From sequence record OL956808.1: DNA of 64,000 nt; one strand, given 5' to 3'. Under the pieces are notes generated by a model. It was not told the origin of the DNA, made no database searches, and was given only the letters and a program-made list of their open reading frames with translations. The position numbers and the translations under genes were made by a program. The stretch is from Escherichia phage vB_EcoM-S1P5QW. This document shows positions 41,913-43,505 of this stretch, one piece after another (positions within the stretch are counted from its first letter, which is position 1; every line of letters starts with the position of its first letter).

Positions 41913-41985
41913 TGGGAATTAGCCAAGTTGGTAAGGCACTGGATTTTGATTCCAGGATGCAAAGGTTCGAGTCCTTTATTCCCAG
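41913..41985 (+). tRNA. tRNA-Gln (anticodon UUG); CCA not encoded
   Basis: Cloverleaf folded by hand: acceptor tgggaat/attccca, anticodon loop ttTTGat, T-loop ggttcgagtcc. Confidence 0.85.
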
Positions 41986-41986
41986 C

Positions 41987-42073
41987 GCGAGAATGGTCAA
42001 ATTGGTAAAGGCACAGCACTTAAAATGCTGCGGAATGATTTCCTTGTGGGTTCGAGTCCCACTTCTCGCACCA
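41987..42073 (+). tRNA. tRNA-Leu (anticodon UAA), type II
   Basis: Acceptor gcgagaa/ttctcgc, anticodon loop ctTAAaa, long variable arm, encoded CCA; abuts tRNA-Gln (dimeric precursor as in T4). Confidence 0.85.
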
Positions 42074-42078
42074 AATTT

Positions 42079-42152
42079 GCGGATATCGTATAATGGTATT
42101 ACCTCAGACTTCCAATCTGATGATGTGAGTTCGATTCTCATTATCCGCTCCA
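42079..42152 (+). tRNA. tRNA-Gly (anticodon UCC)
   Basis: Acceptor gcggata/tatccgc, anticodon loop ctTCCaa, T-loop gttcgattc, encoded CCA. Confidence 0.85.
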
Positions 42153-42198
42153 ATTTATGTCTCGTCGTGAGACGCTCAGTTCTTTATTAGGGACTGAT

Positions 42199-42807
42199 AT
42201 GCATTTTTATCTTTATAAAATAACAAATAAAATTAATAATAAAATTTATATTGGTGTGCATTCTACCGAAAATTTAGATGATGGATATATGGGTTCTGGT
42301 AAATTATTAAAAAGAGCCCAAGATAAATATGGTATAGAAAATTTTTCTAAAGAAATATTAGAGTATTTTGATGATAAAGAATCTATGCTTGAAGCCGAGA
42401 AAAATATTGTCACAGAAGAGTTTTTAAATAGACCAGATGTGTATAATTTAAAACTTGGAGGTGAAGGTGGATGGGATCATATAAATAATTATCCTATGAC
42501 AGATCAGCAACGCGAATTAATTTCATTGGGTGTTAAAAAGGCACATTCTAACGGAAAATTAAAAGGATGGTCTTCAAATGGATTAATGAAAAATGGCTTT
42601 GCTGGTAAAACTCATTCTCAAGAAGCTAAACGTAAAATAGCAAAAGCAAACGAAGCAAAAGTTTCTGCGAATGAAAGAAAAAGAAGAATAGAAATTTCTA
42701 AATTATATGATTTTTCTAAGCGGGGTGAATTATCTAAATATGCTAAGCATATTGGCGTAAGTCATACTCAAGCAAAAAGAATTCTAAATCAAATTAACAA
42801 TATATAA
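42199..42807 (+). CDS. segB: GIY-YIG homing endonuclease, SegB-like
   Basis: GIY-YIG signature FYLYKITNKINNKIYIGVH...YMGSG; track ORF (42157) begins just after tRNA-Gly, ATG at 42199 has an RBS; inside the tRNA cluster as T4 segB. Confidence 0.75.
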   Translation: MHFYLYKITNKINNKIYIGVHSTENLDDGYMGSGKLLKRAQDKYGIENFSKEILEYFDDKESMLEAEKNIVTEEFLNRPDVYNLKLGGEGGWDHINNYPMTDQQRELISLGVKKAHSNGKLKGWSSNGLMKNGFAGKTHSQEAKRKIAKANEAKVSANERKRRIEISKLYDFSKRGELSKYAKHIGVSHTQAKRILNQINNI

Positions 42808-42813
42808 ATATTT

Positions 42814-42903
42814 GGAGGCGTGGCAGAGTGGTTTAATGCACCGGTCTTGAAAACCGGCAGTCGCTCCGGCGACTCATAGGTTCAAATCCTATCGCCTCCG
42901 CCA
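42814..42903 (+). tRNA. tRNA-Ser (anticodon UGA), type II
   Basis: Acceptor ggaggcg/cgcctcc, anticodon loop ctTGAaa, long variable arm, encoded CCA. Confidence 0.85.
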
Positions 42904-42908
42904 GTTTT

Positions 42909-42984
42909 GCTGATTTAGCTCAGTAGGTAGAGCAACTCACTTGTAATGAGAAGGTCGGCGGTTCGATTCCGTCAATCAGCACCA
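42909..42984 (+). tRNA. tRNA-Thr (anticodon UGU)
   Basis: Acceptor gctgatt/aatcagc, anticodon loop ctTGTaa, T-loop ggttcgattcc, encoded CCA. Confidence 0.8.
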
Positions 42985-42985
42985 A

Positions 42986-43060
42986 GGCCCTGTAGCTGGA
43001 AGGTTCAAGCAAGCGACTCATAATCGCCAGATGGTGGTTCAATTCCACCCAGGGCCACCA
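42986..43060 (+). tRNA. tRNA with CAU anticodon (Ile2-type as in T4, or Met)
   Basis: Acceptor ggccctg/cagggcc, anticodon loop ctCATaa, encoded CCA. Confidence 0.75.
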
Positions 43061-43069
43061 AATTAATTT

Positions 43070-43156
43070 GGGGAGTTATCCCGTAGAGGTAGCGGTGTGG
43101 ACTGTAAATCCATTGTCATTGCGACTCGGGTGGTTCGACTCCATCACTCCCCACCA
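43070..43156 (+). tRNA. tRNA-Tyr (anticodon GUA), type II
   Basis: Acceptor ggggagt/actcccc, anticodon stem gtgga/tccat with loop ctGTAaa, long variable arm resembling E. coli tRNA-Tyr, encoded CCA. Confidence 0.7.
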
Positions 43157-43160
43157 ATTT

Positions 43161-43235
43161 GGATGTGTAGCTCAATGGCAGAGCGATCGCCTGTTAAGCG
43201 ATTGGTTATAGGTTCGAATCCTATCACTTCCGCCA
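43161..43235 (+). tRNA. tRNA-Asn (anticodon GUU)
   Basis: Anticodon stem atcgc/gcgat with loop ctGTTaa, T-loop ggttcgaatcc, encoded CCA; one U-U mismatch in acceptor stem. Confidence 0.7.
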
Positions 43236-43349
43236 AATTTGTGACAACTGTCACATTAATATCTACTTGACGCGATTATCGGGGTTGAACTGATCACTCT
43301 TCTCTTAATTTCGTGTGAAGACATCTTGATTGTTGGAGTAGGTATTAAT

Positions 43350-43425
43350 GTGGCCGTAGTTCAGTTGGTAGAACTCGAGATTGTGATTCTCGTAGTCATG
43401 GGTTCGACTCCCATCGGTCACCCCA
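43350..43425 (+). tRNA. tRNA-His (anticodon GUG)
   Basis: D-stem gttc/gaac, anticodon stem cgaga/tctcg with loop ttGTGat, T-loop ggttcgactcc, discriminator C and CCA; no encoded G-1. Confidence 0.7.
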
Positions 43426-43429
43426 ATTA

Positions 43430-43505
43430 CGGGGCATAGCTCAGAAGGAAGAGCAAGGACCTTCTAAGTCCTGGGTCGTAGGTTCGATCCCTACTGCCTC
43501 GACCA
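43430..43505 (+). tRNA. tRNA-Arg (anticodon UCU)
   Basis: Acceptor cggggca/tgcctcg, anticodon stem aggac/gtcct with loop ctTCTaa, encoded CCA. Confidence 0.8.

What the first reader, a model, noticed from the sequence alone, without database searches (positions are those of the whole stretch)
41913..43505. Ten-tRNA cluster whose composition differs from the canonical T4 set
By manual folding I find Gln(UUG), Leu(UAA), Gly(UCC), [segB], Ser(UGA), Thr(UGU), CAU (Ile2 or Met), Tyr(GUA), Asn(GUU), His(GUG) and Arg(UCU). T4 is recalled to encode eight tRNAs including Pro and lacking Tyr, Asn and His. tRNA-Gln lacks an encoded CCA and abuts tRNA-Leu with a 1-nt spacer. tRNA-His has no encoded G-1, and tRNA-Asn has a U-U mismatch in the acceptor stem.
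Basis: partly seen in the sequence, partly recalled or inferred. Interest (0 to 1): 0.45.

Follow-up and report, generated by a model that had tools for sequence, protein, structure and literature searches.

The report
Known T-even phage tRNA operon variant
The ten tRNA genes are real and correctly identified, but this arrangement is an ordinary variant of the T4-family phage tRNA operon, already annotated in phages such as AR1 and RB18; the only new item is an unannotated folded RNA just upstream of tRNA-His.

Summary
Observation confirmed. ARAGORN and the Rfam tRNA model find the ten tRNAs at 41913-43505 (+) with the stated anticodons. Gln lacks CCA and sits 1 nt before Leu. tRNA-His has T at -1, where E. 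coli hisR has G. tRNA-Asn has a U4.U69 mismatch.

It is not new. The window is a Tequatrovirus about 98% identical here to AV122, AR1 and RB18, and AR1 carries the same annotated ten-tRNA layout. T4, T6, T2 and REP2 show other mixes, and this mosaicism driven by Seg homing endonucleases was published in 2008 and 2026.

Refinements:
- The CAU tRNA is an Ile2 type.
- The "segB" ORF has a SegB catalytic domain fused to an unrelated C-terminal half, and it sits where T4 has tRNA-Pro.
- The Asn U.U mismatch is a private substitution; 351 relatives have U.G.
- T at -1 of tRNA-His is shared by every phage homologue examined, including T5.
- Codon demand fits nine tRNAs but not His.

The 114-nt Asn-His "spacer" is a conserved three-way-junction RNA with compensatory changes. 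It occurs in 355 phage records and was never annotated as an RNA in the about 100 rows listed. Its position and terminal helix resemble T5 stable RNAIII.

The parts
41819..41843 (+). Candidate MotA-type middle promoter (TGCTTTA box, 12 nt, TATTAT) upstream of tRNA-Gln
   Evidence: Read by eye. The region is 95.9% identical to T4. PMC2330249 says the T4 cluster is transcribed from a middle promoter just upstream. Inferred, not tested.
41913..41985 (+). tRNA-Gln(UUG). No encoded CCA; C41986 is the single spacer base before tRNA-Leu
   Evidence: (67.4 bits). T4 has the same arrangement.
41987..42073 (+). tRNA-Leu(UAA), type II, CCA encoded, identical to T4's
   Evidence: (59.3 bits).
42079..42152 (+). 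tRNA-Gly(UCC), CCA encoded, identical to T4's
   Evidence: (65.8 bits).
42199..42807 (+). Seg-type GIY-YIG homing endonuclease gene (202 aa from ATG 42199; the longest ORF starts at 42157). It occupies the slot where T4, T2 and REP2 have tRNA-Pro
   Evidence: Pfam GIY-YIG 27 bits against a cutoff of 22.6; NUMOD3 exactly at its cutoff. The first ~97 residues are near-identical to T4 and T6 SegB (83-84% over the 117-120 aligned residues); the C-terminal half is unrelated. That C-terminal domain occurs in about 55 Tequatrovirus records and matches a T2 cluster ORF at 40%. A 9-bp hairpin at 42176-42197 ends just before the ATG.
42814..42903 (+). tRNA-Ser(UGA), type II, CCA encoded (T4's copy lacks CCA)
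   Evidence: (62.6 bits). A CCAG-bearing Ser is described for T2L in PMC2330249.
42909..42984 (+). tRNA-Thr(UGU); 1 nt (A42985) before the next tRNA
   Evidence: (72.9 bits).
42986..43060 (+). tRNA-Ile2 type (anticodon CAU, expected to be lysidine-modified and to read AUA). Its sequence type differs from the T4 and T6 tRNA-Ile(CAU)
   Evidence: (59.9 bits).
43070..43156 (+). tRNA-Tyr(GUA), type II; absent from T4
   Evidence: Rfam gives only 30.2 bits. It matches the T6 tRNA-Tyr at 85 of 87 positions and shares the variable arm of the T5 and T6 tRNA-Tyr.
43161..43235 (+). tRNA-Asn(GUU) with U4.U69; T43228 is a private substitution
   Evidence: (71.6 bits). None of 351 database copies is identical, and relatives carry G69.
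43250..43349 (+). Unannotated conserved structured RNA element: a 14-bp terminal helix enclosing a three-way junction. Its last base is T-1 of tRNA-His. A small hairpin at 43239-43254 precedes it
   Evidence: MFE -30.7 kcal/mol, z = -2.98. Consensus structure and covariation. Found in 355 phage records, not annotated as an RNA in any listed row. No Rfam match.
43350..43425 (+). tRNA-His(GUG), C73, CCA encoded, T rather than G at -1
   Evidence: (65.1 bits).
43430..43505 (+). tRNA-Arg(UCU) of a non-T4 sequence type, with C1:G72, G2:C71, G3.U70, G4:C69 and A73
   Evidence: (63.9 bits).
43507..43626 (+). Homologue of T4 stable RNA rnaD
   Evidence: Alignment to the annotated T4 record.
43633..43770 (+). 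Homologue of T4 stable RNA rnaC. Its 3' part (43678-43771) is the tRNA-like fold that ARAGORN calls 'tRNA-Lys'
43821..43853 (+). Intrinsic terminator closing the operon
   Evidence: 10-bp stem with 7 G-C pairs followed by a T run. Conserved in T4 and T6.

Best explanation
This is the tRNA operon of a T4-family (Tequatrovirus) phage, in one of several mosaic versions that circulate in the genus.

**Transcription and processing (inferred from T4).** One transcript probably runs from a middle promoter upstream of tRNA-Gln to the terminator at 43821-43853. Host enzymes, namely RNase P, 3' trimming nucleases and the CCA-adding enzyme, then cut it into:
- ten tRNAs;
- the mRNA of a Seg-type homing endonuclease;
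- the stable RNAs rnaD and rnaC;
- very likely a further folded RNA of about 100 nt between tRNA-Asn and tRNA-His.

**What the tRNAs do (inferred).**
- They feed translation of an AT-rich genome. Seven read A-ending codons that are 1.6 to 9 times more frequent in the phage than in E. coli.
- Tyr and Asn serve amino acids used about 1.6 times more often in the phage.
- At least Tyr, Thr and Asn can also replace host tRNAs destroyed by tRNA-cutting defence systems.

**Why the composition differs between phages.** GIY-YIG homing endonucleases cut at the 3' ends of tRNA genes, and repair copies neighbouring genes across. In this genome such a gene sits exactly where tRNA-Pro is in T4. A module of the folded RNA plus tRNA-His is inserted between Asn and Arg relative to T2.
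For: **Shown here.**
- All ten tRNAs are confirmed.
- The region is 98% identical to AV122, AR1 and RB18, and AR1 has the same annotated layout.
- Synteny with T4 runs from trna.2 through rnaD and rnaC to the terminator.
- T6, T2 and REP2 show alternative layouts.
- The Seg ORF carries the SegB catalytic domain.
- Phage versus E. coli codon frequencies: TTA 3.0x, GGA 3.8x, TCA 3.6x, ACA 3.8x, ATA 5.0x, AGA 8.8x, CAA 1.6x, Tyr 1.7x, Asn 1.55x.
- tRNA-Tyr matches the T6 tRNA-Tyr at 85 of 87 positions.

**From papers.**
- The T4 cluster is one middle-promoter transcript ending after species I RNA. SegB cuts at the 3' ends of tRNA genes and drives inheritance of the region. T2L carries extra tRNA genes, including Asn (PMC2330249).
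- The T6 tRNA-Tyr neutralises Septu, and SegB amplifies it (PMC13096335).
Against: - His codons are rarer in the phage (14.7 per 1000) than in E. coli (26.0 per 1000), so codon supply does not explain tRNA-His.
- CCA is 1.8x enriched in the phage, yet tRNA-Pro(UGG) is the tRNA that was lost.
- tRNA-His lacks the encoded G-1 that E. coli HisRS normally needs, so its charging is uncertain.
- No expression, processing or charging data exist for this genome. The promoter assignment is by eye.
- The anti-defence roles are extrapolated from T6 and T5 tRNAs, not tested for these alleles.
Confidence: 0.9

Rival explanations
1. The three extra tRNAs (Tyr, Asn, His) are kept mainly as counter-defence spare parts, replacing host tRNAs cut by defence nucleases. 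Codon matching is secondary.
For: - A near-identical T6 tRNA-Tyr overcomes Septu, and the T5 tRNA-Tyr overcomes retron-Eco7 (PMC13096335).
- tRNA-Asn(GUU) is a PARIS AriB target, and traces of tRNA-His(GUG) cleavage were seen (PMC12409363).
- His codon demand is lower in the phage than in the host.
- From my own knowledge, untested here: GUA, GUU and GUG are three of the four anticodons cut by colicin E5-type nucleases.
Against: - Septu cleaves the T6 tRNA-Tyr too, and rescue needs extra gene dosage (PMC13096335).
- The papers I read name no defence system that mainly targets tRNA-His.
- Tyr and Asn are also more in demand in the phage, so supply alone could explain those two.
Confidence: 0.35
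2. Some members are decaying genes. tRNA-Asn is damaged by the U4.U69 mismatch, and tRNA-His, lacking G-1, is a poorly charged passenger carried along by recombination.
For: - T43228 is unique among 351 copies.
- T at -1 contrasts with G-1 in E. coli hisR.
- His codons are not enriched in the phage.
Against: - Asn still scores 71.6 bits and His 65.1 bits.
- One internal U.U in a 7-bp stem is usually tolerated (my own knowledge).
- tRNA-His with T-1 is conserved at 92-100% across Tequatrovirus, Karamvirus and Jiaodavirus.
- The T5 tRNA-His also has T-1, and the T5 record notes that it works as an efficient amber suppressor after an anticodon change.
Confidence: 0.08
3. The Asn-His interval is only a processing spacer or a promoter, not a distinct RNA.
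For: It lies inside a polycistronic tRNA precursor. No experimental data exist for it.
Against: - Nine of 29 predicted pairs show changes on both sides, against 3.5 +/- 1.2 in shuffles (0 of 500 reach the observed count) and at most 2 in slid controls.
- The terminal helix is fully rewritten yet still complementary in a Vequintavirinae phage.
- The sigma-70 scan finds no + strand promoter in the interval.
- The element also occurs ahead of Arg, Asn or Gln genes without His.
Confidence: 0.25

Closest known systems
tRNA cluster of Escherichia phage AR1 (NC_027983), also RB18 and AV122
   Same: Identical gene order: Gln, Leu, Gly, seg, Ser, Thr, CAU, Tyr, Asn, His, Arg. About 98% nucleotide identity. 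All ten tRNAs are already annotated there.
   Different: AR1 and AV122 carry a 366-bp insert with a 117-aa ORF right after tRNA-Arg, which the window lacks. Their tRNA-Asn has G69, giving U.G, where the window has T.
Phage T4 tRNA gene cluster (Gln, Leu, Gly, Pro, Ser, Thr, Ile, segB, Arg, rnaD, rnaC)
   Same: Same genomic slot and flanks, the same Gln-Leu junction without CCA, identical Leu and Gly, and homologous rnaD, rnaC and terminator.
   Different: - T4 has Pro and lacks Tyr, Asn, His and the folded element.
- T4 segB lies between Ile and Arg.
- The T4 Ile(CAU) and Arg(UCU) are different sequence types.
- The T4 Pro, Ser and Ile lack an encoded CCA.
T2/T2L and T6 tRNA regions
   Same: T2 has CAU, Tyr, Asn and Arg of the same sequence types. 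T6 has a 98% identical tRNA-Tyr next to SegB (PMC2330249, PMC13096335).
   Different: T2 has Pro, no His, no element and no intact seg gene. T6 lacks Pro, Ser, Asn and His, and has full SegB between Tyr and Arg.
Phage T5 stable RNAIII followed by tRNA-His
   Same: A stable RNA of about 106 nt, whose ends pair in a helix of about 10-12 bp, abuts a tRNA-His that has T at -1 and C73. The window element has the same position and architecture.
   Different: No significant sequence or covariance-model similarity: 13.3 bits, E = 0.62. Homology is unproven. The function of T5 RNAIII is itself unknown.

Membership tests
tRNA (Rfam RF00005) | Covariance-model score at or above the gathering score (29 bits), plus a cloverleaf fold | tested here: met
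   All ten meet it. Nine score 59-73 bits and Tyr 30.2 bits. ARAGORN draws cloverleaves for all ten. The eleventh ARAGORN call at 43678-43771 has no Rfam hit even at E <= 1.
Tequatrovirus tRNA operon | Position between the trna.2 homologue and the e.8 side of the genome, followed by rnaD, rnaC and a terminator | tested here: met
tRNA-Ile2 (lysidine-dependent, reads AUA) | CAU anticodon with an Ile2-type body: C4:G69 and C5:G68, and the anticodon arm of ileX-type tRNAs rather than of tRNA-Met | tested here: met
   The best E. coli match is an annotated tRNA-Ile at 81.6%. In the alignment the 19-nt anticodon arm is identical to E. coli tRNA-Ile(CAU) and differs from metT. The TilS determinant list is from my own knowledge.
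tRNA-Ile2 (lysidine-dependent, reads AUA) | C34 actually converted to lysidine, and charging by IleRS | not testable with these tools
   Needs RNA mass spectrometry or aminoacylation assays.
Bacterial-type tRNA-His | GUG anticodon and C73 discriminator | tested here: met
Bacterial-type tRNA-His | Genome-encoded G at position -1, able to pair with C73 | tested here: not met
   T43349 is at -1. E. coli hisR has G. T is at -1 in all phage homologues examined, including T5.
SegB homing endonuclease | GIY-YIG catalytic domain homologous to T4 SegB | tested here: met
   Pfam GIY-YIG 27 bits against a cutoff of 22.6. 83-84% identity over 117-120 residues to T4 and T6 SegB, and near-identical over the first 97 or so.
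SegB homing endonuclease | SegB C-terminal DNA-binding region, which sets target specificity | tested here: not met
   No alignment beyond about residue 120 to T4 or T6 SegB. The C-terminal half belongs to another group, present in about 55 Tequatrovirus records and more distantly in Klebsiella phage endonucleases.
T5 RNAIII-like stable RNA | Sequence and structure homology to T5 RNAIII | tested here: inconclusive
   The covariance model of the element aligns end to end to T5 RNAIII, but at 13.3 bits and E = 0.62.
T5 RNAIII-like stable RNA | Accumulates as a discrete stable RNA in infected cells | not testable with these tools
   No expression data are available.

The most novel reading that the evidence does not exclude
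The 114-nt Asn-His 'spacer' (about 43250-43349) encodes a previously undescribed, conserved, structured small RNA. It has a 14-bp terminal helix and a three-way junction. It travels through tRNA arrays of at least four Tevenvirinae genera and a Vequintavirinae phage, often as a module with a tRNA-His that has U instead of G at -1. This mirrors the RNAIII plus tRNA-His(U-1) pair of phage T5.

It could be a stable RNA with its own function. Alternatively it could shape 5' maturation of tRNA-His: U-1 is the closing pair of the element's helix, so an extra 5' nucleotide might be retained for HisRS without a G-1.
Probability: 0.45. Interest if true: 0.45.

Novelty: already known. Interest (0 to 1): 0.15.

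Why it matters
For the finding as written, very little. It documents one more copy of a tRNA operon variant already annotated in many T4-like genomes, and the reasons for that variation are published: homing-endonuclease mosaicism, codon supply and defence evasion.

It is still useful as a clean example of three things:
- a Seg endonuclease gene replacing tRNA-Pro;
- a tRNA-Tyr allele of the type shown to defeat Septu;
- a phage tRNA-His that breaks the bacterial G-1 rule.

The unannotated folded RNA next to tRNA-His is the only part that could lead somewhere new. It would add a third class of stable RNA to T-even tRNA operons. It also offers a concrete handle on how phage tRNA-His is matured and charged.

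Tried and rejected
- **ARAGORN's eleventh gene** ('tRNA-Lys(ttt)', 94 nt, 43678-43771). Rejected as a tRNA. It has poor D and anticodon arms and no Rfam hit. It maps onto the 3' two-thirds of the T4 rnaC homologue, with the rnaC 3' end at the discriminator-like A.
- **Rfam at E <= 1 over 41700-44000.** Nothing for the Asn-His element, rnaC or rnaD. The other sub-threshold hits are tRNA look-alikes.
- **Covariance model of the element against T5, T4 and T6 loci.** T5 RNAIII aligns full length but only at 13.3 bits, E = 0.62, so homology is not claimed. T4, T6 and T2 have no copy.
- **IMG/VR pattern scan for the element core.** Five loci were returned. Four are genuine T4-like copies and one (L015) is a chance match.
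- **Sigma-70 promoter scan.** No + strand promoter lies inside the Asn-His interval. Overall counts were not above shuffles.
- **Literature searches.** Searches for phage tRNA-His G-1, T5 stable RNAs, and rnaC/rnaD gave nothing specific on the element or on U-1. A review confirms that the roles of RNAC and RNAD are unknown.
- **Asn U.U mismatch as a family trait.** Rejected: none of 351 records is identical and relatives have G69.
- **Pseudogene reading of tRNA-Tyr** (30.2 bits). Rejected because it matches the experimentally active T6 tRNA-Tyr at 85 of 87 positions (PMC13096335).
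Full report
**1. Observation**

ARAGORN on the whole window finds eleven genes, all on the + strand between 41913 and 43771.
- Gln UUG 41913-41986
- Leu UAA 41987-42073
- Gly UCC 42079-42152
- Ser UGA 42814-42903
- Thr UGU 42909-42984
- CAU 42986-43060
- Tyr GUA 43070-43156
- Asn GUU 43161-43235
- His GUG 43350-43425
- Arg UCU 43430-43505

The Rfam tRNA covariance model hits the same ten above its gathering score. Nine score 59-73 bits. tRNA-Tyr scores 30.2 bits against a threshold of 29.

The cloverleaves confirm each detail:
- tRNA-Gln ends at discriminator G41985. A single C41986 follows, and tRNA-Leu starts at 41987.
- tRNA-Asn has U4 opposite U69.
- tRNA-His has a 7-bp stem starting at G43350, C73 and an encoded CCA, with T43349 at -1. 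E. coli hisR has G at -1.
- Only Gln lacks an encoded CCA.

**2. What the region is**

The 2.1-kb region matches 1147 phage records. The best are Tequatrovirus genomes at about 98% identity: AV122, vB_Eco_EL, NR1, Ge15, teqdroes, AR1 and RB18.

The AR1 RefSeq record annotates the same ten tRNAs in the same order, with an endonuclease gene between Gly and Ser. AV122 does the same.

T4 has Gln, Leu, Gly, Pro, Ser, Thr, Ile(CAT), segB, Arg, rnaD, rnaC. Other layouts in the genus:
- T6: Gln, Leu, Gly, Thr, CAU, Tyr, segB, Arg.
- T2: Gln, Leu, Gly, Pro, Ser, ORF, CAU, Tyr, Asn, Arg, ORF.
- REP2: Gln, Leu, Gly, Pro, Ser, Thr, Ile, Tyr, Asn, [element], Arg.

The Tyr-Asn-spacer-His block is covered at 80% or more in 186 records. 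Many more have only Tyr and Asn. The window's composition is thus one common allele of a known mosaic locus.

Brok-Volchanskaya et al. 2008 (PMC2330249) had already shown three things:
- T2L, RB1 and RB3 differ from T4 here, and T2L has four extra tRNA genes.
- tRNA-Asn holds the preferred SegB site.
- SegB cuts at the 3' ends of tRNA genes and drives inheritance of the region.

**3. Anatomy beyond the tRNAs**

Upstream, 41500-42157 is 95.9% identical to T4. A MotA-box-like TGCTTTA, 12 nt and TATTAT lie at 41819-41843. This was read by eye and not tested.

Downstream of tRNA-Arg the window aligns with T4 and T6 through rnaD (43507-43626), rnaC (43633-43770) and a terminator at 43821-43844 plus a T run. 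ARAGORN's eleventh gene, 'tRNA-Lys(ttt)', is the tRNA-like 3' domain of rnaC and not a tRNA.

Compared with AR1 and AV122, the window lacks a 366-bp insert with a 117-aa ORF immediately after tRNA-Arg.

**4. The endonuclease**

The ORF at 42199-42807 has a GIY-YIG domain (Pfam 27 bits, cutoff 22.6) and a NUMOD3 motif exactly at its cutoff.
- Its first 97 residues or so are nearly identical to T4 and T6 SegB.
- The remaining 105 residues do not align with either.
- That C-terminal half occurs at more than 95% identity in about 55 Tequatrovirus records.
- It matches Klebsiella-phage endonucleases at 40-70%, and the ORF inside the T2 cluster at 40%.

It is therefore a SegB-like catalytic domain on a different DNA-binding module, placed exactly where T4, T2 and REP2 have tRNA-Pro. 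Calling it segB is only half right.

**5. Refinements to the tRNA calls**

*CAU tRNA.* Its best E. coli match is an annotated tRNA-Ile at 81.6% over the full length. In alignment it shares the acceptor stem, with C4:G69 and C5:G68, and an identical 19-nt anticodon arm with E. coli tRNA-Ile(CAU). It differs from metT and from the T4 and T6 tRNA-Ile(CAU) sequence type. It is an Ile2-type tRNA.

*tRNA-Asn.* None of 351 database copies is identical (best 98.7%). AR1, AV122 and an IMG/VR relative have G at position 69. The U.U mismatch is therefore a private G-to-T change at 43228, or a sequencing error, on a U.G background.

*tRNA-His.* T at -1 is shared by all homologues examined in Tequatrovirus, Karamvirus and Jiaodavirus, and by T5. 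The T5 record annotates that T as the first base of tRNA-His.

*tRNA-Tyr.* It matches the T6 tRNA-Tyr at 85 of 87 positions and shares the variable arm of the T5 and T6 tRNA-Tyr.

*tRNA-Arg(UCU).* It is a different sequence type from T4's and carries C1:G72, G2:C71, G3.U70, G4:C69 and A73. AR1, AV122, a Karamvirus contig and T5 also have G3.U70. T2 and STP4-a have A3:U70, and REP2 has G3:C70.

**6. Function**

Codon counts come from 64 long ORFs of the window and 42 annotated E. coli K-12 genes. Values are per 1000 codons, phage then E. coli:

| Codon or amino acid | Phage | E. coli |
|---|---|---|
| TTA | 30.5 | 10.1 |
| GGA | 22.7 | 6.0 |
| TCA | 18.7 | 5.2 |
| ACA | 20.3 | 5.4 |
| ATA | 12.1 | 2.4 |
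| AGA | 10.5 | 1.2 |
| CAA | 23.8 | 15.0 |
| Tyr | 44.1 | 26.0 |
| Asn | 58.4 | 37.6 |
| His | 14.7 | 26.0 |

Supply to an AT-rich genome fits nine of the ten tRNAs. It does not fit His.

Published work gives a second role:
- The T6 tRNA-Tyr neutralises Septu, which cleaves the tRNA-Tyr variable loop. SegB amplifies that gene. T4, which lacks tRNA-Tyr, cannot escape (PMC13096335).
[quoted passage not shown] The T5 versions rescue infection (PMC12409363).

I therefore take the cluster as a supply-plus-backfill operon whose content is reshuffled by Seg endonucleases. Transcription and processing are inferred from T4, not shown here.

**7. The unannotated element**

*Fold.* The 114 nt between Asn and His are not a plain spacer. 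As RNA they fold at -30.7 kcal/mol, z = -2.98.

*Distribution.* The sequence recurs in 355 phage records and is not annotated as an RNA in any of the about 100 rows listed; a few rows show only a hypothetical protein or the edge of a neighbouring tRNA. It always lies inside a tRNA array on the tRNA strand:
- between Asn and His in Tequatrovirus;
- between Asn and Arg in REP2, without His;
- between Gln and His in Karamvirus and Jiaodavirus;
- between Gln and Asn in Gelderlandvirus STP4-a;
- between Gly and Gln in the Vequintavirinae phage A7_1.

*Structure.* An eight-sequence alignment gives a 14-bp terminal helix enclosing a three-way junction.

*Covariation.*
- 96% of cells are paired.
- Nine of 29 pairs have changes on both sides, against 3.5 +/- 1.2 in shuffles (0 of 500 reach the observed count) and at most 2 when partners are slid.
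- In A7_1 the terminal helix has a different sequence but is still complementary.

*Link to tRNA-His.* The last base of that helix is T-1 of tRNA-His.

*Known families.* Rfam has no match.

*T5 analogy.* In T5 a 106-nt 'stable RNA with unknown functions', RNAIII, also has paired ends and abuts a tRNA-His with T-1. My covariance model aligns to it end to end, but only at 13.3 bits and E = 0.62. I claim analogy, not homology.

**8. Verdict**

The observation and the interpretation are correct. The thing described is an already known and already annotated variant of a classic locus.

Interest is low for the finding itself. The folded RNA next to tRNA-His, the U-1 tRNA-His and the G3.U70 tRNA-Arg are side observations that would need experiments.

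Noticed in passing
window 43250-43349 (+), with a small hairpin at 43239-43254: A conserved RNA element of about 100 nt with a 14-bp terminal helix and a three-way junction lies between tRNA-Asn and tRNA-His. It shows compensatory changes and occurs in 355 phage records from at least five genera. It is not annotated as an RNA in any listed row and has no Rfam match. Its position and architecture resemble T5 stable RNAIII.
   Followed up: yes
window 43349-43350; L018 (T5) 5283-5285: T at -1 of tRNA-His is shared by all phage tRNA-His genes examined: Tequatrovirus, Karamvirus, Jiaodavirus and T5. The T5 record counts that T as part of the tRNA. In the window the T is also the closing base pair of the upstream element's helix. 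How the tRNA is matured and charged without G-1 is open.
   Followed up: partly
window 43430-43505: tRNA-Arg(UCU) carries G3.U70 together with G2:C71, G4:C69 and A73. From my own knowledge, this is the E. coli AlaRS identity set. It starts with C1:G72. G3.U70 is also present in AR1, AV122, a Karamvirus contig and T5, but T2 and STP4-a have A3:U70 and REP2 has G3:C70. It may be a neutral wobble; possible Ala mischarging is untested.
   Followed up: partly
window 43678-43771 within 43633-43770: The homologue of T4 stable RNA rnaC contains a tRNA-like 3' domain with an 8-bp acceptor-like stem and a perfect T arm (CCGGG-TTCGAAT-CCCGG). ARAGORN reports it as a 94-nt 'tRNA-Lys(ttt)'. The annotated T4 rnaC 3' end falls on the discriminator-like base.
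   Followed up: partly
window 42157-42807: The Seg endonuclease is a domain chimera: SegB catalytic domain plus an unrelated C-terminal half. That half is 40% identical to the ORF of unknown function inside the T2 tRNA cluster. A 9-bp hairpin at 42176-42197 ends one base before the likely start codon at 42199. This recalls the hairpin proposed to restrain T4 segB translation.
   Followed up: partly
window 43506-43509 versus L002 3203-3570 and L003 3208-3575: The closest relatives AR1 and AV122, and also T2, carry a 366-bp insert with a 117-aa hypothetical ORF right after tRNA-Arg. The window lacks it, as do T4 and T6.
   Followed up: no
window 43228: The T that creates the U4.U69 mismatch in tRNA-Asn is unique among 351 database copies of this tRNA. 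It is either a private mutation or a sequencing error.
   Followed up: yes
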